Assembly: GCA_965178125.1 (NCBI GenBank)
Contig: OZ237761.1
Location: 62,001-126,000, forward strand
Origin: Bilabrum cf. latius
Taxonomy: Eukaryota
DNA length: 64,000 nt
Direction: 5' to 3'
The notes under the pieces are model-generated. The model did not search any database. It was not told where the DNA came from and saw nothing but the letters and a program-made list of their open reading frames with translations. A program made the translations under genes and the position numbers. Positions 3,980 to 64,000 of this stretch are shown here, piece by piece; positions within the stretch are counted from its first letter, which is position 1; each line of letters opens with the position of its first letter.

Positions 3980-6900
3980 TCAGCCCAGTCTGCCAACCAG
4001 CTTCAGTTCCCCGCTCGAAGCCCTTAGGATCAACCTCGTCAACTCCTCGCCCAGCCTGCTCCCCGGCATCTGCAGCCTCCTGCGGAAATCGAAGTGCCAT
4101 GCTTGCAGCTCCGATTGCAGAACGACCTTCCTCTTCAGCATCTGCACGTCCACTGGGTCCAGCACCGCAAGTAGCTCACGCGGGATCCACCGGAGTCTGG
4201 CACGGTCGGCAGGAGACAGGTGCGCTGCACCACCCGCGGCATCCTGGCGCGATTTGGGGTGAGTTTGGGAATCAGACGCTTCAGGCCATACGTACGCATA
4301 CGACCCAGTGCCTGATGCCTCCCCGAGAGGTGATCCGAATCCATCTTCACCATCCATCCGCGGCACCGCTCTGCCTGTGCCACCGGCGCCGCCCCGCTCC
4401 GTCCGGGCACGCTTGGAGGGCGGTAAGCTGGACATGACTGAGCCGGACATCTCGCTGATCTCGTCCAGATCCCAAATCCGACCTGCAGCCGTACCATGGC
4501 CTGGATCATCGGAACGCCTGACGCTGCCGAAGCGGTGCTCCATAGGCATGGGCTGCAGCGTGCTCATGCCGTGGCCTGCGCCAGCTCCAGCTGCATGAGA
4601 GCTGCTGCTGCTGCTGCTGTTGCCAGCACCAATCATTGCACTGCTTGACGATGACGAGACACCTACTACAGCGCCGGCTCCATACGCCGATCCACCACTG
4701 CTAGCACCTGCACCGTGTGCACCCGGCATCCCCTCCTCGATCATGGCCTGCTGACCACTTGCATACCCCGGACTCAGGAATCGCGATGACCCCGAATATG
4801 GCAGGCCCAAGGACGGTGCCTCCACGTATGTATGTGTGCTTCCCCGCGGCGGGTCCATCCTGTGTGTGTCTGCTGCTGAAATGGGACGGGTGAGTGCCAC
4901 CTCACCCGGCTCGAATCCACCCCACGATCGGGACTGCTTCGACTCGCCGGCGCCAGCATCGAAACCCGCAGAGGGAGAGCCGAGCATCATGGGCTGCATC
5001 CCATGTGACGCAAGAGAGGACGCATCGTCATTGCCGGCGCCTTTGCCGGCACCATCATCGAGTACCGAGCCGGTTCCCAAGGAGCCAAGCGCCAAGCTCT
5101 AAGGGCTGCCTAGGGCGAATCGCCCGGCGCGGTCGGTGCCCTCCCCTGCTGGCATGTGCAAGTTGCTACCAGCAGATCCGGCACTGGGGCTTCCACTGGC
5201 CGGAGTCTGCATCCAATCGTGGCCTGGACCTGGACGAGCTGCGGTGGAACTACCGGCTTGCAATACTCCAGACGCAGCACTTCCAGGTCGGCTGCTGGTC
5301 GAGGTGGCAAGCATCGCGGAAGCCCTGCCGCGTGGCAAGCTGGACGCATCGTCGGCGATGTTGCCTTGGTCAGTGGCCGCTGATGCGCCAGAGGATCCTT
5401 GTCCTGATGATGACGAAGGGTCATTTGACTGTACGCCATCCATAGGGACCGATGCACCCGACGACTCCTGTCCAGAGGAAGGGTGACTCGGATTGTGACC
5501 CAACATTGCCTGTTGGCTGGACAGTGGACCTGCTTCTGAGTGCTGAACAGATGGCTATCCAAAGCCAGATGCCAGAGGCTGTACGGATCCGTCACTACCT
5601 AAAGCTGGCGGTTTTGTTACGCGACTATACCAAGTTTGTCTGGTCGAAAAAGGTTGAGCGGGTCCCTACTTCTGCTTCGCTTCAATGGTTTCTGCGGCGG
5701 CCCAGCACCATGGCAGGTAAGGCCCTTGGGTCCGTTGGTCAGCAAGGCCACGGAACTCCCCGAGATGCTCCTCTTTACTCGGCAAACTCTCCCAGTTCTT
5801 GAACTGCCCGCACAGCGCCCTCGGTACAGTGCCTACCCAGTCGGAAACAAGCTCAATTTCAACGTAGAAGAGCACCGAAGCAAGACGGTTGGCCACAAAG
5901 TCACCCGGTGGCACTTTCTCCTATTCAAATTGCGGGGAGACTCGGGGTTCGCATTGTTCGATGCCTGTAATTTGCGACTCAGATGAGAAGGATCCTGACC
6001 CTGTTCCTGTTTTCAATCGTGCACCCATTGCCATTCCGCCCGATGCCGGCCCAGAGTTACTGCTCGCCTTCGATGCACCAGCAGATGCGTGGTGCTGAGC
6101 CTGAGCCTGCGCGAGTCTCTCACCGACGATCGCAACCGCTTTGCGTGCCGCACTGGTGTAGGATTCGCCCTGTTCCTCCACCAATCCGACAAACTCCATG
6201 GCCTCCTGCTTTGCCTTCTCAGACACGAAGAAATGCCTGCACATCTGAGCAGGCAGCGTGAACGTCCTTCGCCTGCCGATGATAGCTCCCAGCTGGCTGG
6301 CGGACTGCAGCATGGCGCTGATCGGGTCTGTCTCCATCGGCTGGTCGGCCGTGCCCATGTACGCCACCGCCACCTCCTCCTCCCCGCACACCATGCCGAG
6401 AGTTGCCGCGTTCACGAATAGCTGCATCGGCTGCAGAGTGAGCATATTGTAGGTTTGCCGCATCACTAGGATGGGGGACCGGCTCAGCTGGTCGAACATG
6501 AAGGCGTCGTGCGCCTGAATCTGGTAGGCATTCTGCAGCTGGAGCGCTTGGGGGGGGTAGCACAGGCCGAGCGCCATTCGGCAGCAGCACCCCGTTCGCA
6601 GCCGACTCGATGGCCGGTGGCACGAAAACGGTGCGGTTGTAGTCCTGGCCAAGCAAAGCTTGCAGTCCTGGGTGCGTGGGGTCCTGCCGCACCGTCATTA
6701 GGAGACCGCCCCTGCTGTCGATCTGCATCGTCAGCATCGGCTGGGGCATGGATAGTGCAGGTCCAAGCGCCATTAACTGACGGATCTTCAGCTGCTGCTC
6801 CGCGTACGAGTCAGAGGAGGACATTCCGGGCAGTCTAGGCCGCGATCGAAATTTTTTTCTACGGGCAGCTTGATACGGGCCACCGCCCGCAATGTTAAGC

Positions 6901-7601: not shown

Positions 7602-10600
7602 ATGAAGCGTGGCCGGCCCAACCGTGCCTACACCGGTGGAGCGACTATGACAACGAAGCAACCTCCATCACGAAAGGGCCATATTTCGGCCTGCCTGGCC
7701 TGCAAGAGAGCAAAACGTTCTTGCTAGGATGCTCGACCTTGTCCACGCTGCATGCGACTTGGAATCCCGTGCGTCGACGTGTTGGATCGCAGGAGCAAAG
7801 CGTTTCGGAAGATACAATCCAGCGGCGGTAGCGGCGATACCTCCTCTGCTGTAGTGCTATCTGTGCACGGTAAACTTGATTCAAAAGCCGCATCAAATCG
7901 TTCTTATTTGTCGATTGGAGCTCGGGAGTCTCTAATTGCTGCGGCTATCAACGGTTCGGATCATGTTGCGTAGGAGCCGACATCGTCAGAGGACTCTGCT
8001 CGGTGTGGGCACAGCGAGCTATCAGAAAAGTGGGGTCCCTCGGCGCAGGCAGCACCCGTATCAATGCAAGCAGTGCTAGTTCCAAATGGCTCTGCGGCTG
8101 CTAGTCCACCGCAATCTACCGGCCAGGAACTTGTACGATCCGGCGCTGCAAATGCCATCCAAGCCCTGGCCCCTGCCTTCTCGCCGCGTCAGCTGGGCGC
8201 TCGTCAGATCATGTCCATCCGCCCCCCGCGCCCATTGTCTCAACCCATGCTCACAGTGCAACAGGACAGTCGCGGGGGCGTGCTGCTGACGGTGAGGCAG
8301 GATCCGGTCCACCCCGGTGTCGCTGCCCTCTTCGGGCAGGAGTACAATCGGTCCTTCTTCGTGCCTCCAGCCATCGAGGCGGCGGCAAACGGGGTGCTGC
8401 TTCCCGGTGGCTCTCACCCTATACTACCTCCGCACGCCTAGCAGCTGCATTATGCGTACCAAATGCAATCGCATGATGCTCATGTAGTGGAGCAGCTCAG
8501 CCGGTCTCCTCTGCCGGTAGTGCGATACACCCAGAACCTGCTCACCTTGCAGCCAATGCAGGCTTTCATGAACGCAGCCACGCTTCAGATGGTGTGCGGG
8601 GAGCCAGGGGTGGAAAAGGCATACCTCGGCAACGTGCGGCAGATGATGGACATGGGGCCGGTCAGCTCATTCACTCTCTCCGCCAACCAGCTGGGAGCCC
8701 TCATGGGCAGGCACAGGGTTTGCAAGGTGCCAGGTCACATGTGCAGGCATTTTTTTTGTGTCTGAGACGGCCAAGAAGGAGGCCATGGAGTTCGTCAGAC
8801 TGGTTGAATAGGAGGGAGAATCGCCTGGGAGGGCTGCCCTGCTGGCTGTGTAGGGAGGCGAGGAGGCGATAGCTGCGGCTGATAGAGGCAGCAGTGGTTT
8901 GGCGGGGCGTGGGGGCTGCAGCGTGGCGCAGCAATTCGATTTAGCCACACCAACGACAGGGAGCATGGACAGTCCTGCTCCGAAACAGGGCCAGTGTTAG
9001 GAGTCGGCAGGAGTCAGCGGTGCCAACGCCTTCGGGCCAGCCGGCTCATATGCAGCACAGCCGGACGAATGGGAAATACCCAAGTTCCTGGCCGAGCGGG
9101 TCGCCTCAATTCCATTCAATTAGGAGATTACGGTGACCGTGGACTGGGTGGGTACCGCACCTCGAGCGCAGTGCGGCCACATCACGCACTGCGACCCGTT
9201 TCCCCGCAAAGAGGACTATGAGGCTGAGTTCAGGGCGCTGGTGGACAGGACACAAGAGGGACCCTTCCTGCCGTGGTGCAGGTGGGATCGATCCAGAGGT
9301 AGGAAACGAGGAAGGGGAAGCGGAAGGGAAAGAGATGGTGGGGATTGCGTTGGCATCACAGCTCCGACAGGCGTGGCATCAGCGCCGTCATCGAACCCAC
9401 TGGTGCCTCGAACACAAGCAGAAGCCGGACGCCGTACCATTCGTGCCGGATTCTAGACCAATGACAGGTCCTACGAAGCCAACGCACATGTAGGGCAAGG
9501 GCAGCTATCAGCGGCCATTCGTACACACGTGTATGCTGGCACCGAGCCAGCCTTTGGTGCCTATACATGTTTAAGCGCGGCAGGCGAGTCTCTGCGGAGC
9601 TGGGGCGAGTCGGACAGCACCGACGGGCAGGGCGTGCTCTTGTCTCCTCCAAGGGACCAGCTGAGTCCGCGTGCTGCCTCCCCTAGTGGCAGCCTGGGGT
9701 TGGAGAGCGAAGCACATTTCGGCGCAGGATCGGTCTAGGGCAGTCCTCGCGAACAAGACTCGGTTCCAGGCAGTCCCATCATCTGGGGGCGCGGTTCCCC
9801 GGGCAGATCAGAAGGTTTTGATGCTAGTGGAGGCCCTGTCTTTAGCCCAAGCGCGATGGAACCGTCTATGGTGGGGTCGTTCTCGGGGTAGGTGGGCAGC
9901 ATTGGGGGTGGCACGCCACCGTCCTGGGGAGGACTCGAGCCGGGCCAGGTCACGCTGACGAGGCCAATGACACCAGCAGATGCCCACAGGGAGGACAGAC
10001 CGATGGGTAGTGCAATTACGTATGTGGAGACCGCTTCGAACGGGTTGCCGTTCTCCGGCAGCATGCGGTTCCTGGGGGAGAGCCACCCACTCGATTCAGC
10101 TGTCTATGCCACTGCAGGTCGCGGAGCTCCGATCGGCAAGGGGGGCATTGAGGCTCGGGGAGGTGTTGAAACAACAAACAATAGTAGCACGAGCGGCAAC
10201 GGTGGCGCCGCAAATCTCGCAGGCGTGGGTGCGGGCTTGCTAAATCATGACCCAGTCACGTATGACGCAGTTGGAGGCTTGGGCACAGCAAAGAGTCGGC
10301 AGGGCAGTGCCAGCGGGAGCGAGACAGGCAATCAGTGGCAAGGCAGTGATTTGGGTGATTCCATGAGCGTGATCTCTGGCGTGTCGAGCCTACCCCCTCC
10401 CAAGCGAGCGCGAAAGGAGGCTGTGAACGGTGGAACAGCGCAGTCCAACGGCCGCCCCATGCCAGCGGAACATGATGTGGCATCTACAGCGGGCCCAAAA
10501 AGTCGTACGAGGCCTAGTGGTAGGGGCGGCAGAGCTGAGGCTAGCAGTAGCAATGTGCATGAAGCTACATACTTGGTGCCTGCTACAGGGGATCACTCAA

Positions 10601-10902
10601 TGGCTGCTTCAAGTCTCGCAGCAACTGGTGGGTCCGATTGTGCAGGCGCTGCATCGGGGCCAGAGAAGCGAGTGCCTAAGGTGGCGGTTCCGGGACTGAG
10701 CCCAGAGCTGCTGGCAGTGCTGGACCCTGTTGATATACACATGATGGAGAGACGGGTGATACTGCAGTCAGAGCTGCAAGCATGGCACTTCGATTTCCGC
10801 AGGAGGCTGCAGATGCCGGGGAGCAGGCTGGGTGAGGAGCTGACGAGGTTGATCCTGAGTGCCTCGAGGGGGGAACTGAGGCTGGCTGGCAGACTGGGCT
10901 GA
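7602..10902 (+). CDS. Zn(II)2Cys6 transcription factor-like protein, paralog B (about 1099 aa); 10 TAG and one apparent +1 homopolymer frameshift
   Basis: ATG at 7602; ACLACKRAKRSC*DARPCPRCMRLGIPC with TAG (7725) inside the zinc cluster. Colinear similarity to paralog A throughout. The T run at 8750-8757 has one extra base. Ends TGA after GRLG, as in paralog A. Confidence 0.8.
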
Positions 10903-25355: not shown

Positions 25356-25726
25356 GAAAACAAACGGATCTCCCGACTGTGAGGACACTGCATGGTGCGG
25401 CTCTAGTTCAGGATTGGATAAGATCTGGATGGATCCGAGTTGCAGTGGATCTGCACGGAGCAGCCCTACGTACTATAGCATGACTGAGGCTGACCAACAT
25501 TGAAACATTAGATAGTGTCAAATTTGCTACGTGTCGTTTTGTCTGCTCCATTTTCGTCCGCTACGACCGAATCGAAAGTGGACCGACAATGCCTGGAGTT
25601 GAATTGCCATGCCCAAGCCAGCATCCTGCTCGTCTCGATTTACAGCGGTCTGGATTTCTCACCAAATTTATGAGTCGATGCAGTTTTCGAACTCTTGTAG
25701 ATGTTTTGCTTTCTTGCTGCCCACAA

Positions 25727-26389
25727 TCACTCCTCCTTGCTATCCTCGCTAGCAACAACACCCTAGGCAACAGCTGGTTTGCCAACTGCTGCAGTTGCAC
25801 TTCCGTCCTCACCATCGGCCCCAAGCTGCTCGCGGAATGGACCCAAGCCGGATTTTCTCTCACTTAATACTGCAATGGTGTCACGAAGCACTTCATCGTC
25901 GCTTCTAGTATCTTTCTAGGTTGAATTGTCTGCATCTAGCGGACCTGTCTCGGTTGCAGGATCCATCTTTGAGTCTTTCGTGATAGCAGAGCCTTTAATT
26001 TCTTTCTCCCAGTTCTACCCATCAAAATCGACGATTGAGCTAGGTTCGAATGTTCCGCGGTCAAGGCACAGGTATGTTATCGCTACCCCGTCAGGGTTGG
26101 AACGCGGGATATAGAACGACACGACCCCGCATCGGTTGCAGAACAAGTGCTTGGCGACGCCGGTGTTGAATCTATATAATGCAATATGATCCATGCCGGT
26201 CAGCAATTCGAACATTTGCTGCGGCACAACGAAGTGTACATTGCCCCGCATCGCGCAGACTGAGCAATTGCACCGGTATACGGCTTGACTTGGTACTCCA
26301 GCTAGCTGGAACCGAACAGCCCCACAGTGACAACCTCCTTTATGCAAAACCAGACGCTTCACGGATTCATGAGAGGCTACCGAGCTCAT
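25727..26389 (-). CDS. GFA / CENP-V family zinc-binding protein; 3 TAG
   Basis: Motifs HKGGCHCGAVRF, CNCSVC, HLFCNRCG, FYIPRSNPDG and FDG*NWE (TAG at 26015). Further TAGs at 25916 and 25763. Ends TGA. Confidence 0.88.
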
Positions 26390-26929
26390 TTCCGATCGTA
26401 ATGTCCGGAACAATTATGACTCCGGATTCTCTATGCATTGTAACGTGTAAGTAACATACGAAACCAGACGGACGCGTCGAACGATGATACGACTCCACAT
26501 CCGCAACATGCAGGGCCGTGCGCGCCCTTTGCTGCAAAATGATGTTCTTGCAGATGGAGGGGGCAACTCGAACGGCGATCCCCCAAGCAAGTCTGAGTGA
26601 GGTGGAGAGTCGCAGCGCTTGCACTTGCGTGCGACCCAAAACATCCCTGATGTTTACTGACAATGTACTTGTGAATGTATGCCCTGGTCCAGACCATGGT
26701 TCACATAGATTTACGCGTATGTCTAGTTTGTCCCTGGCGACTTTATCGCGCGGCTGAGCGGCACAGGCGATAGTACTTCACTGTGCAAGCGACGAGTTAT
26801 GCGGCTGTAGCACAATTGGTCCAGACTATGGAGCTTGTCCCCATTAAAAGGCCATGATACGAGTAGTAGCAGAGTGCCGCTAGGAGCTTGCCCCAATCTC
26901 TCTGTCCTTGTTCGGTCCCGCATCGCAGC

Positions 26930-29878
26930 AGCGCTTGGATGTGGCTACAGCACTACGTCCCAATCCTGCGGTGGCTCCCATACTACTAGCCAGGGCTTCA
27001 AGTAGGCAGAGACGTCGTGGCAGGTCTCACCGTAGGCGTGATGGCCGTCCCTTAGGCCCTTTCCTACGCGGGCGTGGCCGGCCTGTCCCCCCAGTTTGGC
27101 CTGTACAATGCCTTTGTGGGCCTGCTGCCCTACTTTGCGTTCGGCACCTCGCCGCAGCTCATCTCGGGCCCGACCGCCGTGATGAGCATCATGACCCGCT
27201 CCTAGGTGCCCGACACGTACACCCCCGAGACGCTGGACTACGAGAAGATCTGCTTCATCCTTGCCCTGTTCGCTGGCATCATCCAGATCCTGCTGGGCGT
27301 GCTGCGCATGGGGCAGCTGATCAACCTCATCGGAGCCCCCATCATCGTGGGATTCACCACTGCCAGCGCATTCCTAATCGCAGCGACTCAGTTCTCCAAT
27401 TTCCTGGGCGTGCCCAAGTGCCAGCACTTCATCGAGAAACCCAACCCCAACCCGAGCGTCAACGGCACCATGGCAGCAGGTGGGCCCGAGATCAAGGTCA
27501 AGGTGAAGTGCAATTTCATCGAGGAGGTCTCATGGGTGGCTTCCAAGGGCCTCACCAAGCACTCGGAGATCAAGGGGTACGTCGTGCTGGCCTCGGCTAT
27601 CTGCGTGTCGGTGCTGCTCTTCTTCAAGTACTTCCTCAAGCCTAGGCTGCCGCAGCATCTCAAGCCGCTAGGCAACTTGGGCCCCCTGCTGCTGGTGGTG
27701 GTGACCATCCCCATCTGGTACGTGCACGGAGAGGCCCTGGAGAAGGTCGGGCTCAAGATGGCCGGCAAGATACCCGACCACCTGCCGAACCACGTCAACC
27801 CATTCGAGGGCATGCACGCGCACGAGGTGACCCAGCTCATCGGACACGCGGTGGTCATCGCGGCCGTGGGCTACATGGAGTCCATGACCATCGCGACCAC
27901 CGTGGCACGCAAGTACGGCGGGTACAAGATCGACCCCTCGCAGGAGATGACCGCGCTGGGAGTCTGCAACATCGTGTGCAGCCAGTTCCAGGGATACCCG
28001 GTGACGGGCTCGTTCTCTCGGACCGCAGTGAACGCCGATTCCGGGGCCTCCAGCGGATTTGCTTCGGTGATCTGCGCGGTGGTGGTGGGGGTTGCCATCC
28101 TGACGTTGACGTCTCTCCTGCAGTACCTTCCCAAGGTGGTGCTTGCCAGCATCATCATGGTGTCTGTGATCAACCTGATCGAGTTCGGGGAGGCGGCCAT
28201 CTTCTACCGCACCACGTGGCCGGATTTCATCGTGTTCCTGGTCGTGTTCGTGCTGGTCCTGACCATCGGGGTGGAGGACGGCCTCATCATCGGCATTCTG
28301 GTGCAGTGGGTGCTCTCCTTGACCTCGACTCACTGGGCTGCCTCTCCCGTTGCCGTCCTAGGGCAGGTCAAGGACAATGCCATCCTGCCGCCGGGAGGGG
28401 CAGGTGTCCCTACGGAGGAAGAGGAGGAGCAGGCCATGGCTGAGGTGGGTGGCGGTGCGGGCGGTGGCAAGGAGGACGGGTCTGGAAGCAGCGTCTTGTC
28501 GGGTGGCGTGTCCACCCCTGGAGCAGTCAAGCACGCCTCGTCCATCGTGCACAGCGCCTCCGTGCGGCTGTCCTCCAGGCGGAGGCTAGCGGGCGAGAGC
28601 GGGCCCATGGCGGAGGGTCTAGACCCCGAGGTGGGGCCCGTGGACCCGCATCAGGACGCAGCCGTGCTCGAGCCCTTGTACCCTGGGAGACACCTGGTGG
28701 ATCTCGCGGACGCCCGGTTTGCCCACCTGATGAGGGCGGGGGCGGCCGGGGCCGTGGGTGGGCTGGACGGCGCCTCCCGCGGGACCGTAGTGGTGGTGGA
28801 GGTGCAGTCTCCGATCATTTTCGCCAACGCCGAGAAGCTGCGGCAGACGCTGGACGAGTGCATCTCGGTGTTTCAGCCGAGGGTCGTTGTTCTCTCGTGC
28901 ATCGGGGTGACCGCCGTGGACTCGACTGGGACCGGCGCGCTGAGGTCCGCTGTGCTGGACGCGAGGGCGAGGAAGGTCCTTGTGTTCCTCACGGGGATGG
29001 CGCCGGCCCTCGCCCGCACCCTGACCTCGGGGCTGACAGCGCTGGACGAAGGCCACGGGGCGCCGCCCGTGCCGCTGGATGACGAGATAGAGAAGCAGAT
29101 GGAGGAGGCCATGGTGGGCGCCGGCGACAGCGGCCCCGGCAGTGACCAGGGCAAGAGCTTGGGGATCCGCTAGCAGCTATCCGTTGAGCTGAGGCAGAGC
29201 CCGGTGGGGAGTGGGCCCCAGTACGGTGTGACGAGCAGCATCAACAGCCCTTCCTCCGGAGCGGGGGGCATGACGGGCGGCGGCATGGTTGGGTCGTCGA
29301 TGGAGGACGCGCAGGAGGGGGTGAGGCGCGCGTGCAGGCGGGTGCTGGGGGCGTGGCGGCGGTGCTCGGAGAGCGGCGTCCCTGTGGGCGGCGGGCTGCT
29401 GATGTTCTGGAGGGCGCGGGTGGCGGTGAGGCACGGGCTGCGGCTGGCGGCTGCACTGGACCTGTTGTCCGAGGCGGAGGAGGCCGCCGCCAGAGTGGGT
29501 GGTGCTGGCGGCGGCAATGGCAAGAAGGGCAAGGGCACTAGTTAGGACGAGCAGGCTCAGAAGAAAAAGGACCAGGAGCGCGCGGCACTGGGGCTGGGCG
29601 AGGGTGGCATGGGCGTGCCGCTGTCCCCCGTCGTGCTCGCGGCCCGGAAGCAAGCCGCAGCCGACCGTCTCAAGGCGGCGCAGGAGGCGCTCGCCGTGGG
29701 GCAGCACGACACTCCCTCGGATGGGTCCACGCTCGTGTCACTCGTGTACGCTCGCAGGGCGCCGGACTTGCGCAAGTGGGTGGGTGTGGATCCCGAGGTG
29801 CTGGACGGGGATGATACGCACCACGACGTGCATCTCAAGATCGCGGCCAGGACCAAGTCCACTGGCACAGGGACCTGA
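26930..29878 (+). CDS. SulP/SLC26 sulfate-anion transporter with STAS domain (5' exon not resolved); 5 TAG
   Basis: Motifs PILRWLPYY*, DVVAGLTVGVMAVP*ALSYAGVAGL, GPTAVMSI, GSFSRTAVN and STAS VDSTG. TAGs at 26987, 27053, 27203, 29171, 29543. Ends TGA. Confidence 0.88.
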
Positions 29879-30039
29879 TGAGAGAGCCGCAGGGCCAGCG
29901 TGCGAGTGTGCTCCTCAGCACGAGCAGTTGTTATTTTGGTCTATCTTTTTGGCCAGACTATGCGCCAACGATGGGTCACTTGTGCAGTCCACGAGATATG
30001 TCCGATACAATGGTTCCAGTAAAGCCTGTGTTCCACTCA

Positions 30040-30509
30040 TTATGTGCTCGGGGCCGTGGGTGCCTTGTCGGCCTCGGCTGTCCCAGCCCCTGGCACCATC
30101 ATCGCAATGTTGTTTCCGTTCAGCAAGATCTCATCAAGTTCCACCTTTTCTCTTCCATCAGGCGTAGACACACTGCGAGCGATTTGTGGGAGAGACTCCA
30201 AGACTAGGTGTACACATAATGGCGTTCTAGGTGAGCGGCGGGATACCCATAGCATTCCTCACTACTCGGTGACGTTTTCCAATACCATGTTGACGTAGTC
30301 GTCAAAACCTTTCAATGTACCAACCACCTCCTTGTCTCCTTTCATCAGGACCCAAATCTGGGAGCCTACGCACTTGTCCATGAGCTCTGCGACATGTGGG
30401 AAGGCAACCATATGACTAAGAAGCAATTATTTCGCCGAATCAGGTGGTGATCACTTAATCTAAGATGAATTATCACACCTAGAGGAAGAAGACGAGCTAT
30501 CTTGGACAT
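30040..30509 (-). CDS. LSM5: U6 snRNA-associated Sm-like protein LSm5; exons 30479-30509, 30263-30386, 30040-30172
   Basis: Spliced translation [52 protein letters not shown]...[17 protein letters not shown]. Two GT-AG introns. Ends TAA. Confidence 0.93.
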
Positions 30510-30634: not shown

Positions 30635-31998
30635 ATGGCTGCCGCTGGAGAGTCTAAGGTTGATACTGGTGCTACCGGTGAAGCATCCAGCGGCTCAGGA
30701 TCGGTTGGAGGATTCCGCGTAAAGGCGGGATTGGCCCAGATGCTCAAGGGTTAGCAGTATCTTTGCCCCGAGACGCATCTCGGAGTAGAGACAGGCATCC
30801 ACGGGTGATTGAAGAGTCTCCATCAGCCAATCGCTCGGATTACATACTTTAATTCCTTTGAATCCTTTGTGAACCCCGCAGGTGGAGTGATTATGGGTGA
30901 GCAAATAAGAGCAGTGATGACATCATTGCAGACGTGGCGTTTGTACGCACGCTTGTTTGGAGGCCATGGCTGCGTAGCCGTGATACCTTCGTATTCGAGG
31001 GGCTTTAACGCGAGTCCTCCATATGGCGAAAAACGGTTTACGTCGCAGTTGTGCTCGCTAAAAGAGGAACTGGCGTACCGGCACGGCTCAACTTTTTGCG
31101 CCCTCTTTACAGATTTGTTTGCTGCCGCAATGTATCACGTTCAGCTGGATTCTGACCTAACTAAGCTTAATAAACACCTCCCGCAGACGTGACGACCCCC
31201 GAAGAGGCTGTGATCGCCGAGGAGGCCGGCGCCGTCGCCGTCATGGCGCTGGAGCGAGTGCCCTCTGACATCCGTCACGAGGGCGGCGTGGCCCGTATGA
31301 GCGACCCCGAGATGATCCTCGGGATCAAGAAGGCGGTGAGCATCCCCGTGATGGCCAAGGCCCGGATCGGGCACTTCGTGGAGGCGCAGATCCTTGAGGC
31401 CCTCGAAGTGGACTACATCGACGAGAGCGAGGTCCTGACCATGGCTGACGAGGAGAACCACATCGACAAGAACAACTTCAAGATCCCCTTCGTGTGCGGG
31501 TGCAGGAACCTTGGGGAGGCACTCAGGAGGCTGAGCGAGGGCGCTGCGATGCTCAGGACCAAGGGGGAGGCCGGGACTGGCAACATCGTCGAGGCGGTGC
31601 GGCACGCTCGGGCGGTCAACGGTGAGATCCGTAAGATCCGTGCCATGGACGAGGCGGAGTTGTTCTCCACCGCCAAGCACCTTGGCTGCAGCATCGAGCT
31701 CCTTAAGGAAGTGCGGAGGCTCGGCCGGCTGCCGGTCGTGAACTTTGCCGCCGGCGGTGTGGCCACCCCGGCTGACGCTGCCCTGATGATGCAGCTGGGC
31801 ATGGACGGCGTGTTTGTTGGCAGCGGTATCTTCAAGAGCGGGGATCCCAGGGCGCGCGGAAAGGCCATCGTGGAGGCGGTGACCCACTACCAGGACGCGA
31901 AGAAGTTGGCCGAGCTGTCCACGGGCATCGGCAAGCCAATGAGCGGGGATGGGGACATCAAGAAGAGTATGGTGGCGTTCCGGGAGAGGGGCCACTGA
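30635..31998 (+). CDS. PDX1: Pyridoxal 5'-phosphate synthase subunit PDX1/SNZ; exons 30635-30749, 30882-30896, 31187-31998
   Basis: [17 protein letters not shown] after splicing, [28 protein letters not shown] and [12 protein letters not shown]. Ends TGA. Confidence 0.95.
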
Positions 31999-36391: not shown

Positions 36392-46564
<10,173 letters not shown>

Positions 46565-46831
46565 CTTGTCGGTCCTATGGCTTGCGCAACAGACCAGGGT
46601 CTCAGTTATTGTGCGAACAACCCGACAGATCGACTAAAAACGCCAAGGGGGGCGGTTGAGGTTGTGATCTCGGCGACGGTCTGGAACAGGTCATTCGTTC
46701 CCGGTTCGCCAGAGTTCTTTCGGTGGTCGGTCGTCTCAGGCGACTCGTCTGCCCGACCAGGCCCGGTGTCTGGCAATGTAACGGCGCATAGGCAGCCCAA
46801 GACGGAGCGCGCAGCCTGTTCACGTTTCTAT

Positions 46832-48740: not shown

Positions 48741-50425
48741 ATGCTTCGTTATCGCGCCTTGCGTTCCATGCAAAACATCTCTCGTGTGCCGTGCGGGCAC
48801 AAGGTAGCCTTTGCTCGGGCCTTCACGGCTACGGCGCAAGTGCTTGCCAAGCGCAAGAAGAAGAAGGCCACGTTCGACGATGGTAAGGTACATGTCCAAC
48901 TATGTAATATTTAATGCTGAACTTTTCCAAAGTATAGTGCTACTATGACTTGCAGTCCAATGTACCCGCAGACAAGGCTGCTGCGCTGGATATGGCGGTC
49001 CAGCAAATCGAGTCGGCGTTCGGGAAGGGCTCAATCATGAAGCTGGGGGAACGCGTGCACTCCGACGTGCCGGTAGTCTCTACAGGCTCCCTTACCCTAG
49101 ATGTGGCTCTTGGTATTGGAGGCCTTCCTAGAGGACGTGTGGTCGAGATCTACGGGCCCGAAAGCTCAGGCAAGACTACAATGGCGCTTCACGTGGTTGC
49201 ACAGGCTTAGAAGTAGGTGAGTTATTATCGAAGTCCACGACGACCCAGCTTGGATTGCGCCACCCCGTCAAAGCTTGCAGTCCTGCGTGCTGGCGCGCTG
49301 GCCTCACCACAGAGGCGCGGAACCCGCACCACGCTGGTCATCGCGTGATGTCGGCTGCACTCGCGTGACGAACCCCACGCCTTCCAGCTTTGAACATCTC
49401 ACTCGCAGGGTCTTGATTGCACCTTTATTGACGTCGAGCACGCCATCGATCCGGGTTACGCCGAGCTGATCGGCGTGGACACGTCCTCGCTGCTCCTCTC
49501 GCAGCCAGACACCGGGGAACAAGCCCTCGAGATCGCCGACACGCTCGTCAGGAGCGGTGCCATGGGAGTGGTGGTCGTTGATAGCGTGGCTGCCCTTGTT
49601 CCCCGGGCGGAGCTGGAGGGCGAGATGGGCGACGCGCACATGGCGCTTCAGGCCCGACTCATGTCACAGGCCCTCCGCAAGCTGACGTCTTCCCTGTCTC
49701 GGAGCGACACGCTGCTCATCTTCATCAACCAGATCAGGTCCAAGGTGGGCGTCCTCTTCGGCTCGAACGAGGTCACCACGGGCGGCAATGCGCTCAAGTT
49801 CTACTCGTCCGTACGACTGGACATCCGGCGCACCGGGCAGCTCAAGCAAGGGGACAAGCTGGTGGGCAACTCGACCCGGGTGCGCGTGGTGAAGAACAAG
49901 ATGGCCCCGCCCTTCCGCACGGCCGAGTTTGACCTCATGTTCGGGAAGGGTGTCAGCTGGGAGGGCGAGCTAGTCGACCTGGGCGTGCAGTGCGGGGCGG
50001 TCAAGAAGGCCGGTGCCTGGCTCAGCGTAGAGGCGAGCATCGCGCCGCCGGAGGCATGGATCCAGGACGAGGCGGAGCCGGAAGAGGATGTGGAGGACGA
50101 TGGGGATGACTAGGCCGCCGGGGAAGAAGGGGAGGATGCCGAAGCCGAGGGGGCCGAGGGCGTTGACCCAAAGTAGGCCTCTGTACCTGCACCGGCCCCC
50201 GCCGCGGGGTCCTACAAACCCCCCGAGGGCTCGGTGATGATTGGCCAGGGGAGGGAGAAGGCCAAGGCGTGGGTGCTTGCCCACCCAGCAGTAAGCCAGC
50301 ACATCGCGGCCAGGGTCAAGGAGTTTATGGGGGTCGCAGGAGGGGAAGGGGGGGAGATGGAGGAGCAGGGCGAGGAGGAGGAGCAGGGCGAGGAGGAGGG
50401 TGGGGATCCGACCTCTAGAGTGTGA
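48741..50425 (+). CDS. recA: Bacterial-type RecA with organellar (probably mitochondrial) presequence; exons 48741-48887, 48956-49216, 49409-50425; 4 TAG
   Basis: Motifs [70 protein letters not shown] and IGQGREKA. Arg/Ala-rich presequence. Ends TGA. Confidence 0.93.
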
Positions 50426-59077: not shown

Positions 59078-59707
59078 CGTGGCACCGTGGCGACCTGACT
59101 GGGTCAGCTCGACCACGTTGCTCTGTGTCTGGCTACCCCAGCAGAATTGTATCACGCGCCGCGCCTCTCCACTTCGCCCTGCGTTGCACCTATAGCTTGT
59201 GAGTGACAGCTGCACGGCTGTGGGGTGGCCAGACGCGGCAGCGCATGAGCCAACCATCTTTGGGCTGTACACTTGTTGACAGTATCGACTGGAGCGACTT
59301 ATCTTAGAGGAGCCTCTGTTCCTGCTCTACATCAATCAGTACCGTTACGTGGCTCTGACTGTGCCGTCCTGTTCAGGCACACGGGGCGCCCTCTCAATGG
59401 GTTTGGCGACAGGGGCATCCAGCAGTGCGACAGGTAGATCTAGTAGTGCGTACAAGAGCGGTGCTTCGACATCGGTTTGCTGGCGAGAGTACGAGGCACT
59501 TCAAGCCAGACCAGGTCCATACGGTCGAGAATTGATAATCATGCCCCGGACAGCAGCACCCTTGGGACACATGTCTGCGCCCCGCTGCGGGCCCCCGGAG
59601 CGGATCTGCCCCTCAAGCTGTGAGCTTGCGCGTTACTTAAGGAGTTAATCAGATTACCAGGTCTAGATTCATTTCCCCCCGTATTAGCCAAAGCATAGCC
59701 TCTTCCT

Positions 59708-62700
59708 ATGGTAACCGAAGGGACCATTGAGTTTATAGATGAAGTCAGGTAGGACTTACCGAGGGAAAGGAGGAAATACATTGTCGTTGATCATGGAGCC
59801 CCAGCTGCAGAAGTGCTGGATCAGATCAAAACAAAATGGGACTTCAAGGATGTACCAGGCGAGTTGTACAGTATAACAGGTGGTGCCGATCTTGCAGGTA
59901 TGTCTCGCGATCACCAGGCTGCTTTTGTGCACGGAATAGCAGCCGCAGTTGGCTCCAACGGATCATGGGTAATCACAGGAGGCTCGGACGCCGGAATCAT
60001 GCAGCTTGCTGGAAAAGCACATTCTGATGCAGCATTATATTCACCGTGCATTGGAATCGCAGCATTGGGCAAGGTGTTCAATACTTCCGAGGAGATCCAA
60101 CAAGTCGATGAAGGCGGCGAGACTCCTATATAGTATAAACTCTCTGAGCCCCCTTTCAGGGGTGCTACCAAGGAGGAACACAAAACCCGACTGAACCCTG
60201 ATCACACGCATTTCATTTTTGTTCGACCTCCTGTAGGACGAAAAATATCGAAGTGGGGGGACGACAACAATTTTCGCGAGGCCCTCGAAGGGGAGATCGC
60301 AAAGACCGCCTTCACGGTGCAGGTGGTCGCAAGCGGGGGCCCCGAGACCATGAAGACCGTGTCCAGCGCGGCCCATGCCAAAATCCCGATCGTGCTTTGC
60401 AAGGGATCTGGGCGAGCCTCTGACGTCCTCTGCAAACTGAGTGCCCATGCTGAGCATTTGAGCGAGTTGGACGACTCGTGCCCCCGCGGCTGGTGCCCGG
60501 ATGGCGCCAAGCACACTGCAGCATTGATGGGCAAAGATCCCTATCAAGACTCAAATGTCAACGTTTTCGATCCGATGAGCATAGAGGTCTGGAAAACAAC
60601 GAAGCCACTCACTGCGTGCATCCCTGGCAAAGTGCTACAATGGATGGCGACGAGGTCAAATCCACCAAATCTCGACGATTTCGACAAATACTGTGCCAAC
60701 GGATGGGGCGCATGGACAACTGCCAGTACGACTTATGAAGATTGGCTGGACAGCCATGTGCGGTCGCGGCCAGTTGCTGCTAGATCTGGAAACGGGCAAG
60801 AGGCAGCCGGGCAAGCGGCAGACAGGCAAGCGACAGGCGGGCAAGAGGCAGACAGGCAAGAGGCAGACAGGCAAGAGGCAGACAGGCAAGAGGCAGGCGA
60901 GCAAGAGGCAGGCGAGCAAGCGGCAGCCAGGCAAGAGGCAGACAGGCAAGCGGCAGGCGGGCAACAGGCAGACAGGCAAGCGACAGGCGGGCAAGCGGCA
61001 GACGGGCAAGCGGCAGACAGGCAAGCGACAGGCGGGCAAGCGGCAGACGGGCAAGCGGCAGGCGGGCAAGCGGCAGGCGTGCAAGAGGCAGCCAGGCAAG
61101 CGACAGGCGAGCAAGAGGCAGGCGAGCAAGCGGCAGCCAGGCAAGAGGCAGACAGGCAAGCGGCAGGCGGGCAACAGGCAGACAGGCAAGCGACAGGCGG
61201 GCAAGCGGCAGACGGGCAAGCGGCAGACGGGCAAGCGACAGGCGGGCAAGCGGCAGACGGGCAAGCGGCAGGCGGGCAAGCGGCAGGCGTGCAAGAGGCA
61301 GACAGGCAAGCGACAGGCGAGCAAGCGGCAGCCAGGCAAGAGGCAGGCGTGCAAGAGGCAGCCAGGCAAGCGACAGGCGAGCAAGAGGCAGACAGGCAAG
61401 CGGCAGACAGGCAAGAGGCAGACAGGCAAGAGGCAGCCAGGCAAGAGGCAGACAGGCAAGAGGCAGGCGTGCAAGAGGCAGCCAGGCAAGCGACAGGCGA
61501 GCAAGAGGCAGGCGAGCAAGCGGCAGCCAGGCAAGAGGCAGACAGGCAAGCGGCAGGCGGGCAACAGGCAGACAGGCAAGCGACAGGCGGGCAAGCGGCA
61601 GGCGGGCAAGCGGCAGACGGGCAAGCGGCAGGCGGGCAAGCGGCAGGCGGGCAAGCGGCAGGCGGGCAAGCGGCAGGCGGGCAAGCGGCAGACGGGCAAG
61701 CGGCAGGCGGGCAAGCGGCAGGCGGGCAAGAACCAGGCGGACATCGGCATCTAACCAATTCAGATATCGAGAATCTTTGGTGCTGGTGCGTGCATATACA
61801 CCTCCTGCACATGGGTGCGATCCTTCGAGTCAAGCGTAGGGGCGATGAAGCAACGGGTACGTGGAATTCAACGCGGCGAAGCAGTATCACCCACCGCGTT
61901 ATGTCGAGAGCTGCAAGCACCCCTAGTGCTCCTTCGGGGCACTACTCAAGCATTCGCATCACGCCCGACATGAACGACGACAGTCTCAAGGTCAGGGACA
62001 CGGTGCGCGAATCCCTTGTCGCAATTGCCTTCGATAGCCCGCTTCGACGAATGTCGGATGACCAGCTCAGGCCAGAGTTTGCGGAGGCATGGTCCCTGCT
62101 CATGAGAGGCATGCAGGCCGTGCGGCTTGGCACCTTAGTGACCGTCGACCTGTCTCTGGTGTCATCTTCGTTCGTCAGATCGATGTCTTCTCATGGGCCG
62201 GCACCAAGCCCATCCGATGGTCTCGGGGGTTCAGATCTGCAAGAGCTTTGTCGCGTCTTATTGCAAGAAGGTGCTGCCACTGCTGCAAATGGTGACAATC
62301 CGATAGGCCAGCATCGACCGGCATCTCAAGTGCAGCCTTGCGAGGCACACCGACTTCCTGCGACTGTAGAGTTGCTACTGCAGTGCAAGCAGCCATTAAC
62401 TTTGCAGGAGGCCATGGCAAGAGCGGCGTTGATTGGCAAGGCAATGAACCCACCACAATCAGGTAGAGTTGGACAGGGGAGCGGTGCAGCATCCGCCCCC
62501 CGGCCAAGCCCATTCGAGATGGCCGTCCGATGGAACTGTTCGGAAACGATTCGGGCTTGGTTGCGCGGAACACTGCAGACGACTAGCAGCTCCTCGAGGA
62601 TGGATCCGGGTACTTTGCTCGTTATTCAACTCGGCTTAATCGATGCTACTTTGCGCGATGCTGGTGCAGTAGTAGCTTGCATTCTGCAAGAGTGTACAGA

Positions 62701-64000
62701 ATTCGTGGAGGTGCTTTATATGGTCGACAACCATTGCCTTCAGTAGCTGGCATCACCGAATGGTGCATCTGAGGGCGAATCACCTACCAGGGAGCGGAGC
62801 GACACAATGTGCAGGGATGATTGGAAGCAGCTCATTTCGCAGCGCAAGTGGGAAGAATGGCTCCCAAGCATCAATACATCACACTTCTCCTGCTTGGAGT
62901 CAACAGCTTGGAGTATGCACTCTGCTGACGAAGCAAAGGAATCGGTTCGGTTGTTGTGGGCTCTGGTGAATCGCAAGTTCAGCGTCGCTCGTGTCTTCTG
63001 GAGGTACTGCTCCGAGCCTCTGCGGATGGCTCTGTACGCGGCACAGGTTCTGCGGAAGCTAGCAGGCACGGATGATGCAGCGCGCACCATGCTGCTGAGT
63101 GAAGCGGACTGGTACGAACGGTTTGGTATATAGGTGCTCGAGCACGGTGGTACTAGCAGGGACTTCCGTGGGTGGGACAAAAAGGATCGGCAGAACGTTT
63201 CACTGTGGCTTAGGTCCACAGCACCGAGGTCTCAAGTGATATGCGATGCCATTCTTCAGTAGTACTCGGTGTCAAAACACATCGAGCATGGTAGGTGCTG
63301 TTGGTACATGTGTTGGTCTTGCTGTCGGGATATGCCGTCTTGCTGTCAGAGTTGTTTCTGCTGTCGGGATGGCCTGACTCAGGTGACCCGCCTCCACCGC
63401 GGCTCAAACATCATCCGATTGGCTCAACGCTCTGAGTCAATGGAGTTTATGGGCCATCCGGTGGTGCAGAGGCAGCTGCGATGTCTTTGGCGACACAACA
63501 CTTGGGAGAAGCCATCGGGGGGACTGACCACAGTATGGGGATGCTGCCGAGTATGGGACTGCTGTGCAAGCTAGGACTATTCTGCTAGGAACAACTGGTT
63601 TAATGCACCACGCACGCGGTGCTGGTTGCATTCGATTTCTCGGGTTGCCCTCACTATCCTTCATGCTTGGGTGGTTCTTCAACACTACGATGAGCCGCGA
63701 GCTCGGCTATTTCTTCCCATTCTCTTCTTCGTATGGAAGGGCCTGCAGCTTTTGGAGGACAGTCTAGTTGCTGCTAGGCTGGGCATCCACGACATCTCCG
63801 TGTGGGATGCGCTTGGTACTCTTGATTACGCGGCAATGTTTGTAAGCCTAGGGCTGTTCACGGCTGCTGGCATTGGTGACAATGGTATCTTGCACGACTA
63901 TTCGATGGATGTGCTTAGCGTCTCGTTCATTGTGGCGTGCATCCGTCTCCTGGACATCCTCGCAGTCATAGAGTTCTTTGGCCCGATGGTTATCACCATC
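59708..64000 (+). CDS. Second TRPM-like channel paralog (3' end beyond the window; a further upstream exon is possible); at least 6 TAG
   Basis: Motifs GTIEF, SITGGADL, WVITGGSDAGIM, LNPDHTHFIF, GGPETMKTVSSA, WALVNRKFSVARVFW and TM RLLDILAVIEFFGPMVITI. TAGs at 59750, 60131, 62744, 63131, 63260, 63572. Confidence 0.85.
60794..61740 (+). repeat. 15-bp coding minisatellite (about 63 units) encoding Q(E/A)A(D/G/A)(R/G/E) pentapeptides
   Basis: Units such as gcaagaggcagacag and gcaagcggcaggcgg, in frame within the TRPM-like paralog. Confidence 0.95.

What the first reader, a model, noticed from the sequence alone, without database searches (positions are those of the whole stretch)
27032..27075. 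Diagnostic site 1: TAG at the conserved Gln of the SulP signature (VMAVP*ALSYA)
The SLC26/SulP TM1 consensus is P-Q-x-x-(A/S)-Y-A with a near-invariant Gln. TAG at 27053-27055 occupies that position, and the rest of the transporter is intact.
Basis: partly seen in the sequence, partly recalled or inferred. Interest (0 to 1): 0.8.

Follow-up and report, generated by a model that had tools for sequence, protein, structure and literature searches.

The report
TAG codes glutamine in sulfate transporter
An intact, expressed anion-transporter gene of a GC-rich eukaryote carries the "stop" codon TAG exactly where all relatives need a glutamine, which shows that this organism reads TAG as glutamine rather than as stop.

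Summary
TAG at 27053-27055 lies in frame in the motif P-TAG-A-L-S-Y-A of an SLC26/SulP gene (ATG 26508, one 332-nt intron, stop TGA TGA at 29876-29881; 1012 codons; 5 in-frame TAGs). In 150 homologs the column is Q in 123 of 138 residues, then E in 12. It is Gln112 of AtSULTR4;1 and Q97 of prestin, a residue of the anion-binding site.

Four results support TAG = Gln:
- A spliced cDNA contig keeps all five TAGs unchanged.
- A metagenomic ortholog (91% amino-acid, about 71% nucleotide identity, dN/dS about 0.05) has CAG at all three window TAG sites it covers, and has TAG at one site where the window has CAG.
- GC3 stays at 0.84-0.86 past the last two TAGs and falls only after TGA TGA.
- In 16 long ORFs of the window (15,783 codons) TAG is in frame 68 times; TAA and TGA, which bound these ORFs, never are. 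About 30 TAA would be expected if TAA were also Gln.

The code looks like UAG-only to Gln, a known but rare kind. One marker gene places the organism nearest to stramenopiles, and I found no report of such a code there. The suppressor tRNA, eRF1 and proteomic proof could not be tested.

The parts
26508..26596 (+). Exon 1 of the SulP gene, coding from ATG 26508 (MQGRARPLLQNDVLADGGGNSNGDPPSKS, last codon split GA|C)
   Evidence: The cDNA contig of run X5 covers 26503-26596 and joins to 26929. The sequence and frame were read. The choice of start codon is inferred.
26597..26928 (+). Intron, 332 nt, GT..AG; contains the two upstream TAGs (26864, 26867) that the raw ORF seemed to hold
   Evidence: Joint 26596/26929 in X5 (1 contig, depth 51.5, side 94) and weakly in X7 (side 20). 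The DNA contig of X1 is contiguous there.
26929..29878 (+). Exon 2: the rest of the CDS, holding the SLC26 transmembrane domain (about 26939-28372), STAS (about 28781-29026) and a C-terminal tail, up to TGA 29876-29878
   Evidence: Pfam, PDB alignments, translation with TAG=Q, cDNA contig cover with 0 differences.
27050..27070 (+). TM1 signature P-[TAG]-A-L-S-Y-A
27053..27055 (+). The TAG of the finding. It corresponds to Gln112 of AtSULTR4;1 and Q97 of prestin; read as Gln
   Evidence: Column Q 123 of 138. The ortholog L001/L005 has CAG here. Residue numbers were counted from the alignments. Role of the residue.
26987..26989 (+). In-frame TAG (YY-TAG-PG) in a variable column
   Evidence: CAG in L001 and L005. 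Column mixed: D 30, R 20, K 15, N 15, S 12, Q 8.
27203..27205 (+). In-frame TAG (TRS-TAG-VPD) in a variable column
   Evidence: CAG in L001. Q in ORF fragment P0002, which comes from the same relative.
27155..27157 (+). CAG (Gln, GTSP-Q-LISGP) where the relative's ortholog L001 has TAG: the reciprocal case
29171..29173 (+). In-frame TAG about 50 codons after the Pfam STAS match; the standard-code ORF ends here
   Evidence: GC3 is 0.86 before and 0.86 after it. The frame stays open to 29876.
29543..29545 (+). In-frame TAG in the C-terminal tail
29876..29881 (+). Tandem stop TGA TGA, the real end of the CDS
   Evidence: GC at the three codon positions drops to 0.45/0.53/0.54 after it.
29882..30172 (+). 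3' untranslated region covered by the same cDNA contig
   Evidence: X5 record 8, X7 record 16.

Best explanation
The window comes from a GC-rich, intron-poor eukaryote whose nuclear code reads UAG as glutamine and keeps UGA, and apparently UAA, as stops. The gene at 26508-29878(+) is a functional, expressed SLC26/SulP anion transporter of the SULTR / SLC26A11 type, with a transmembrane domain, a STAS domain and a long tail.

Its codon 27053-27055 (TAG) encodes the conserved TM1 glutamine of the P-Q-x-x-(A/S)-Y-A motif. That residue lines the anion-binding pocket and, in AtSULTR4;1, positions the TM10 arginine.

Shown:
- the codon, its frame and the conservation of its column;
- retention of the codon in spliced mRNA;
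- TAG/CAG interchange between orthologs under strong purifying selection;
- the window-wide use of in-frame TAG.

Inferred: decoding by a tRNA-Gln with anticodon CUA, together with an eRF1 that no longer recognises UAG.
For: 1. TAG is in frame at the conserved Gln: Q 123, E 12, M 2, K 1 of 138 residues in 150 homologs, and Q in the 3 PDB alignments printed.

2. mRNA. The X5 contig (3413 nt) lacks the 332-nt GT..AG intron that DNA run X1 holds, so it derives from spliced RNA. It covers 26929-30172 with 0 differing letters and 0 gaps, so all five TAGs are in the message.

3. Ortholog in metagenome loci L001/L005. Over 274 aligned codons, 236 amino acids are identical, 129 of them through different codons; pS 0.71, pN 0.10, dN/dS about 0.05. 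In total 4 of 4 TAG positions pair with CAG: three in the window and one in L001.

4. GC3 is 0.86 before TAG 29171, 0.86 and 0.84 after the two last TAGs, and 0.54 after TGA TGA.

5. Window-wide ORF lengths. Freeing TAG raises the longest ORF from 932 to 3432 codons. Freeing TGA gives 951 and freeing TAA gives 932.

6. Window-wide codon counts. The 16 long ORFs (15,783 codons) hold 68 in-frame TAGs, and 13 of the 16 end in TGA.

7. The relative's gene was called as separate ORF fragments under the standard code (P0002, P0001). P0002 ends after ...VCS, where the window has CAG.

8. Q112A abolishes almost all transport in AtSULTR4;1 (passage). A truncated or wrongly decoded product would therefore not be maintained under dN/dS of about 0.05.
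Against: - No tRNA gene lies in the window and no whole genome is held, so the decoding tRNA and eRF1 were not seen.
- There are no protein-level data.
- Only one of the five CDS TAGs lies in a family-wide Gln column; the other four columns are variable.
- CAG to TAG is also a common nonsense route, so CAG pairing alone would not exclude decay.
- Within-window paralog pairs pair TAG with E, V, I, H, D and others, and are uninformative.
- The ortholog evidence comes from one relative only; L001, L005, P0001 and P0002 appear to be the same or nearly the same organism.
- Contigs drop rare variants, so minority editing cannot be excluded.
- The status of TAA as a stop rests on its absence in frame. 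The only ORF ending in TAA has a TGA four codons later.
Confidence: 0.85

Rival explanations
1. UAG is ambiguous. It is read as Gln inside genes by a suppressor or near-cognate tRNA-Gln, but still terminates translation in some contexts (a context-dependent or leaky code), so part of the product may end at, for example, TAG 29171.
For: TAG 29171 lies about 50 codons after the Pfam STAS match, where many SulP proteins end. The relative's ORF fragment P0001 also stops within a few codons of that place. The homology of the tail beyond it is weak: one 27-residue match to P0004, E 4e-5, which was not recovered.
Against: GC3 of 0.84-0.86 continues in the same frame for 234 more codons up to a tandem TGA TGA. 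None of the 14 ORFs whose ends lie in the window needs TAG as its stop. TAG also occurs at the essential TM1 Gln, where termination would destroy the protein.
Confidence: 0.08
2. TAG is a sense codon but stands for another amino acid, such as Glu, Leu, Ser, Tyr or Lys, as in other reassigned codes.
For: E is the second residue in the column (12 of 138). Prestin Q97E keeps non-linear capacitance, unlike Q97D. UAG to Leu, Ser and Glu codes exist.
Against: 4 of 4 TAG positions pair with CAG, and none with GAG, CTN, TCN or TAY, in an ortholog at 91% amino-acid identity whose synonymous sites are near saturation. The column is 89% Q.
Confidence: 0.04
3. The gene is a decaying pseudogene, or the TAGs are assembly errors: CAG to TAG nonsense changes.
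For: CAG to TAG is a single transition. Under the standard code the gene is cut into pieces.
Against: dN/dS is about 0.05 against the ortholog, which carries its own, different TAG. There is no frameshift, TGA or TAA in 1012 codons. The gene is spliced and expressed. The same TAG-only pattern is seen in all 16 long ORFs. The sequence is identical in runs of several studies.
Confidence: 0.01
4. The TAGs are corrected in the RNA (U-to-C editing to CAG) or are removed by splicing.
For: None found.
Against: The spliced cDNA contig of X5 (depth 51.5) and a contig of X7 carry the genomic letters with 0 differences across the sites. The only joints are 26596/26929 and 30172/30263.
Confidence: 0.01

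Closest known systems
AtSULTR4;1 (PDB 7LHV), human SLC26A11 (9IAR) and prestin/SLC26A5 (7V73): SLC26/SulP anion transporters
   Same: Same domain order, with Sulfate_transp followed by STAS. Best PDB matches: E 1.8e-63, 6.8e-57 and 1.6e-57. The TM1 P-Q-x-x-S-Y-A motif, the TM3 GP, the TM8 E and the TM10 S-F-S-R binding-site residues align.
   Different: About 40-48% identity to the nearest full-length homologs. There is an insertion of about 50 residues in the TM5-TM6 loop region, an insertion within or before STAS, and a tail of about 235 residues after STAS. The conserved Gln is written TAG.
UAG-only to Gln nuclear codes: Iotanema spirale (Fornicata) and the ciliates Hartmannula sinica, Trochilia petrani and Protocruzia tuzeti; formally NCBI table 15
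   Same: UAG is a sense codon at Gln positions, while UAA is not used as a sense codon (PMC11687900 introduction and discussion read; PMC5304391 abstract seen in the search listing only).
   Different: In those ciliates UAA is the preferred stop (86.9-98.3% of genes). Here 13 of 14 ORF ends are TGA. The genome has about 60% GC, and its nearest named PDX1 relatives are stramenopiles, which are neither ciliates nor metamonads.
UAR to Gln codes (NCBI table 6): many ciliates, hexamitin diplomonads, Ulvophyceae, Streblomastix, Amoeboaphelidium
   Same: A stop codon of the UAR pair is read as Gln.
   Different: In this window TAA is never in frame in 15,783 codons, whereas about 30 would be expected from the CAA:CAG ratio if it were Gln.

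Membership tests
SLC26/SulP anion transporter | Sulfate_transp (PF00916) domain above Pfam's gathering score | tested here: met
   300.2 bits against a cut-off of 23.2, E 2.4e-89
SLC26/SulP anion transporter | C-terminal STAS domain | tested here: met
   PF01740, 53.5 bits against 22.6
SLC26/SulP anion transporter | TM1 motif P-Q-x-x-(A/S)-Y-A with the binding-site Gln | tested here: met
   The gene reads P-TAG-A-L-S-Y-A. The feature is met if TAG = Gln, as the ortholog's CAG indicates.
SLC26/SulP anion transporter | TM3 and TM10 binding-site residues (GP of TM3; F-S-R of TM10) and the TM8 Glu | tested here: met
   ISGPTAV, YMES and TGSFSRTAVN align with the corresponding 7lhv residues.
SLC26/SulP anion transporter | Anion transport activity and substrate | not testable with these tools
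UAG to Gln nuclear genetic code (UAG-only, table 15 type) | Many in-frame UAG codons in otherwise intact genes across the genome | tested here: met
   68 TAG in 15,783 codons of 16 long ORFs. The longest ORF rises from 932 to 3432 codons when TAG is freed. The test covers this 64-kb window only.
UAG to Gln nuclear genetic code (UAG-only, table 15 type) | UAG falls at conserved Gln positions or pairs with CAG/CAA in orthologs | tested here: met
   One family-wide Gln column (123 of 138), and 4 of 4 TAG-CAG pairings with one relative. The number of sites is small.
UAG to Gln nuclear genetic code (UAG-only, table 15 type) | UAG present in mature mRNA | tested here: met
   Spliced X5 contig with 0 differences.
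UAG to Gln nuclear genetic code (UAG-only, table 15 type) | UGA and UAA kept as stops | tested here: inconclusive
   UGA: 13 of 14 ORF ends. UAA: 0 in frame against about 30 expected. The single TAA end is followed by a TGA 4 codons later.
UAG to Gln nuclear genetic code (UAG-only, table 15 type) | Cognate tRNA-Gln(CUA) gene | not testable with these tools
   0 tRNA genes in the window; no genome is held.
UAG to Gln nuclear genetic code (UAG-only, table 15 type) | eRF1 altered in stop-codon recognition | not testable with these tools
   eRF1 is not in the window.
UAG to Gln nuclear genetic code (UAG-only, table 15 type) | Gln found at UAG sites in the proteome | not testable with these tools
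   No proteomic data are available.

The most novel reading that the evidence does not exclude
This may be the first nuclear stop-codon reassignment in a stramenopile. It would be an independent origin of the rare UAG-only to Gln code, in a genome of about 60% GC whose main stop is UGA. At least one further species, known only from metagenome contigs, shares the code.
Probability: 0.4. Interest if true: 0.75.

Novelty: new member of a known kind. Interest (0 to 1): 0.62.

Why it matters
Nuclear code changes are rare, and codes that separate the meanings of UAG and UAA are rarer still. The 2024 paper I read lists only a handful of lineages.

A further independent case would bear on two questions: why UAG is captured by Gln so often, and whether low GC content or a preference for UAA as stop is needed. 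This genome is GC-rich, uses UGA as its usual stop, and appears to lie outside ciliates and metamonads.

There is also a practical consequence. Any annotation of this genome and its relatives under the standard code cuts most genes into pieces, as the fragmentary database ORFs P0001 and P0002 show. Gene calls for this lineage should be redone with TAG = Gln.

Tried and rejected
- **Whole genome.** G000 is not held, so there was no search for a tRNA(CUA) or for eRF1.
- **tRNA scan.** ARAGORN found no tRNA gene in the window.
- **RNA runs.** No listed holder is on record as RNA. I inferred that X5 and X7 are RNA only from their spliced contigs.
- **Paralogs in the window.** The pairs orf904/orf751, TRPM1/TRPM2 and GH39a/GH39b are too diverged. 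TAG pairs with E, V, I, H, D, P and gaps, which says nothing.
- **Synteny with the relative.** tblastx of the 4 kb upstream of the relative's gene (L005) against the window gave only low-complexity noise.
- **Homology of the C-terminal tail.** There was one 27-residue match to P0004 (E 4e-5). A direct pairwise BLASTP did not recover it, so I treat it as weak.
- **Lineage.** The AFG1 search gave only about 40% matches to bacteria and animals. The nearest named SulP hits, at 39-41%, are Picozoa and chlorarachniophytes. Only PDX1 gave a consistent (stramenopile) signal.
- **Pfam scan of smaller ORFs.** The call failed because one of my references held stops. I did not resend it and used only the translations it printed.
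- **Literature.** Five searches found no report of a stramenopile nuclear code change. The library lacks most subscription journals.
Full report
**1. The observation**

The sequence at 27032-27075 reads GTA GGC GTG ATG GCC GTC CCT TAG GCC CTT TCC TAC GCG GGC. TAG lies at 27053-27055, in the frame that gives VMAVP*ALSYA. Under the standard code this frame is cut into pieces of 43 and 655 codons and smaller ones. With TAG read as a residue it is open from 26858 to a tandem TGA TGA at 29876-29881.

**2. The gene**

Pfam finds Sulfate_transp (300.2 bits, cut-off 23.2, E 2.4e-89) followed by STAS (53.5 bits, cut-off 22.6). The best solved relatives are:
- AtSULTR4;1 (7lhv, E 1.8e-63);
- a prestin (7v73, E 1.6e-57);
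- SLC26A11 (9iar, E 6.8e-57).

Laying public contigs on 25500-30500 gave the gene model. A 3413-nt contig of run X5 (depth 51.5) covers 26503-26596, skips 332 nt with GT..AG ends, and then covers 26929-30172 with no differing letter and no gap. A 12,297-nt contig of run X1 is contiguous over the whole stretch. X5 therefore holds spliced RNA, although its record does not say so. X7, from another study, shows the same joint weakly (side 20) and has identical contigs over most of the gene.

Read, exon 1 carries an ATG at 26508 that is in frame across the splice (GA|C). This gives a CDS of 1012 codons: 26508-26596 plus 26929-29878. Two upstream TAGs in the raw ORF (26864, 26867) are intronic. The CDS holds five TAGs, at 26987, 27053, 27203, 29171 and 29543.

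**3. The column**

phmmer against 1.84 billion representatives found 19,978 relatives at E up to 0.001. I aligned the best 150. At the TAG column they hold Q 123, E 12, M 2, K 1 and 12 gaps. The neighbouring columns are P 134 of 137, then G/A/S, then M/L/I, then A 99 or S 39 of 141, then Y 138 of 141, then A 130 of 141.

A profile that I built from the 150 without the query emits Q 0.44, E 0.10 and K 0.08 at that state. The emissions are heavily smoothed, since the effective sequence number is 3.41.

Counting along the alignments, the residue is Gln112 of AtSULTR4;1 and Q97 of prestin. The AtSULTR4;1 paper (PMC8298490, passages read) says three things:
- Gln112 helps to hold the guanidinium of Arg393 at the sulfate site;
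- Gln112 is universally conserved in eukaryotic homologs;
- Q112A loses almost all transport.

In prestin, Q97D almost abolishes non-linear capacitance (PMC9584906, passages).

The other four TAG columns are variable. This site is therefore the only family-wide diagnostic one in the gene.

**4. Is TAG translated, and as what?**

(a) The message keeps the codon. That excludes efficient editing or splicing of the site.

(b) A scan of JGI metagenome contigs with the N-terminal 160 residues found the ortholog of a close relative. L001 shows 91% amino-acid identity over residues 1-160, and L005 covers residues 1-47. The two genes are about 71-73% identical in nucleotides. Over 274 aligned codons, 236 amino acids are identical, 129 of them through different codons. 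With pS 0.71 and pN 0.10, dN/dS is about 0.05. Both copies are therefore under strong purifying selection.

At the three window TAGs in this stretch the relative has CAG: L001 at all three and L005 at the two it covers. At window codon 27155-27157 (CAG) the relative has TAG. So 4 of 4 TAG positions pair with a Gln codon, and none pairs with a codon for another residue.

The database ORF fragments P0002 and P0001 match L001 and come from that relative. P0002 has Q at the 27203 site, and it stops after ...VCS, where the window has CAG. The relative's gene is thus also broken under the standard code.

(c) Codon-position GC of exon 2 is 0.63/0.44/0.86. After TAG 29171 it is 0.67/0.62/0.86, and after TAG 29543 it is 0.75/0.47/0.84. 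After TGA TGA it is 0.45/0.53/0.54. Coding constraint therefore runs through both late TAGs to the TGA pair.

A short tail motif (AALGLGxGGxGVPLSP) recurs in homolog P0004 (27 residues, E 4e-5). A direct comparison did not recover it, so I count it as weak.

**5. The window as a whole**

GC is 0.53-0.67. Freeing TAG raises the longest ORF from 932 to 3432 codons. Freeing TGA gives 951 and freeing TAA gives 932.

The long ORFs are eukaryotic genes (the last two from the translations printed):
- two TRPM-like channels with SLOG domains;
- ornithine decarboxylase;
- two GH39 glycosidases;
- an AFG1-like ATPase;
- an ankyrin protein;
- a cupin/JmjC-trefoil protein;
- an SRCR protein;
- a DUF268 protein;
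- a PDX1 exon;
- a RecA-like ORF.

In 16 such ORFs (15,783 codons) TAG is in frame 68 times. TAA and TGA are in frame 0 times, which follows from how the ORFs were defined. The two other frames hold 42-49 TAA and 277-292 TGA.

With CAG 458 and CAA 201, about 30 in-frame TAA would be expected if TAA shared the meaning of TAG (68 x 201/458). None is seen. Thirteen ORFs end in TGA, one ends in TAA (AFG1, with a TGA four codons later) and two run off the window.

The code therefore looks like UAG = Gln with UGA, and probably UAA, as stops. The status of UAA rests on absence only.

**6. What could not be tested**

- There is no tRNA gene in the window and no genome is held. The expected tRNA-Gln(CUA) and the eRF1 changes are inferred from what is known of such codes (PMC11687900, introduction).
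- No protein-level evidence is available.

**7. Rivals**

- Pseudogene or assembly error: contradicted by the dN/dS, by expression, by the absence of TGA, TAA and frameshifts, and by the window-wide pattern.
- Another amino acid: contradicted by the 4 of 4 CAG pairings, although the number of sites is small.
- RNA editing: contradicted by the cDNA contig.
- Ambiguous or context-dependent UAG: not excluded. TAG 29171 lies about 50 codons after the Pfam STAS match, and the relative's ORF fragment stops nearby. The GC3 signal beyond it argues for readthrough as the main outcome.

**8. Comparison with what is known**

As a protein, this is an ordinary member of SLC26/SulP with long insertions and a tail.

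As a code, UAG-only to Gln is known from Iotanema spirale and from the ciliates Hartmannula sinica, Trochilia petrani and Protocruzia tuzeti. UAG-only codes with Leu or Ser are also known (PMC11687900, discussion; PMC5304391, abstract in the listing). Those ciliates use UAA as their main stop. Here the main stop is TGA and the genome is GC-rich.

**9. Lineage**

The PDX1 exon (31174-31995) has a 93% match without a name. All 10 organism-named rows among the best 120 are stramenopiles, at 74-78% identity: Mucochytrium, Hondaea, Heterosigma, Phaeomonas, Tribonema, Pythium (twice), Achlya, Phytophthora and Florenciella. Cluster look-ups add Chaetoceros and a pelagophyte.

The nearest named SulP relatives, at 39-41%, are Picozoa and chlorarachniophytes. 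AFG1 was uninformative. I therefore take a stramenopile origin as likely, not as shown.

Five full-text searches found no report of a nuclear code change in stramenopiles. The library lacks most subscription journals, and the runs date from 2025, so a report may exist or be on its way.

**10. Verdict**

The finding is correct and its interpretation is supported. The site is a valid diagnostic of TAG = Gln, and is much strengthened by the ortholog comparison and the cDNA evidence. The kind of code is known. The lineage and its setting (GC-rich genome, UGA as main stop) appear to be new.

Noticed in passing
whole window; 16 long ORFs listed: TAA is never in frame in 15,783 codons, whereas TAG is in frame 68 times. 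Thirteen of 14 ORF ends are TGA. The reassignment therefore seems to affect UAG only, with UGA as the usual stop.
   Followed up: partly
31174-31998 (+): An exon of pyridoxal 5'-phosphate synthase PDX1/PdxS, with no TAG. Every organism-named hit among the best 120 is a stramenopile (74-78% identity), and an unnamed relative reaches 93%.
   Followed up: partly
49394-50425 (+): A bacterial-type RecA-like ORF with an acidic C-terminal extension, presumably an organelle-targeted recombinase. It was seen only as a translation; no family search was completed.
   Followed up: no
36392-46690 (-) and 59624-64000 (+): Two very large TRPM-like channel genes (SLOG/LSDAT plus TRPM2-like plus ion-transport domains). 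One is an uninterrupted reading frame of 3432 codons with 13 TAGs. Both hold long simple repeats: an (Ala-Gly)n run in the first, and QEADRQ/QAAGGQ-type units in the second.
   Followed up: no
3980-6694 (-) and 8647-10902 (+): A divergently oriented pair of paralogous ORFs (38-40% identical over two blocks). They match no Pfam family and share N-terminal (FFVSE.AK.EAMEFV) and C-terminal (LQSELQAWHFDFRRRLQMPGSRLGEELTRLIL) blocks.
   Followed up: partly
30173-30262: A 90-nt stretch is skipped in the cDNA contigs of X5 and X7, with CT..AC ends on the + strand. That makes it a GT..AG intron of a minus-strand transcript converging on, and assembled together with, the SulP 3' end.
   Followed up: no
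29876-29881: The SulP gene ends in a tandem stop, TGA TGA.
   Followed up: no
L001:558-560 and ORF fragments P0001/P0002: A second organism, known only from metagenome contigs, shares the in-frame TAG usage. Public gene calls cut its SulP ortholog into separate ORFs.
   Followed up: partly
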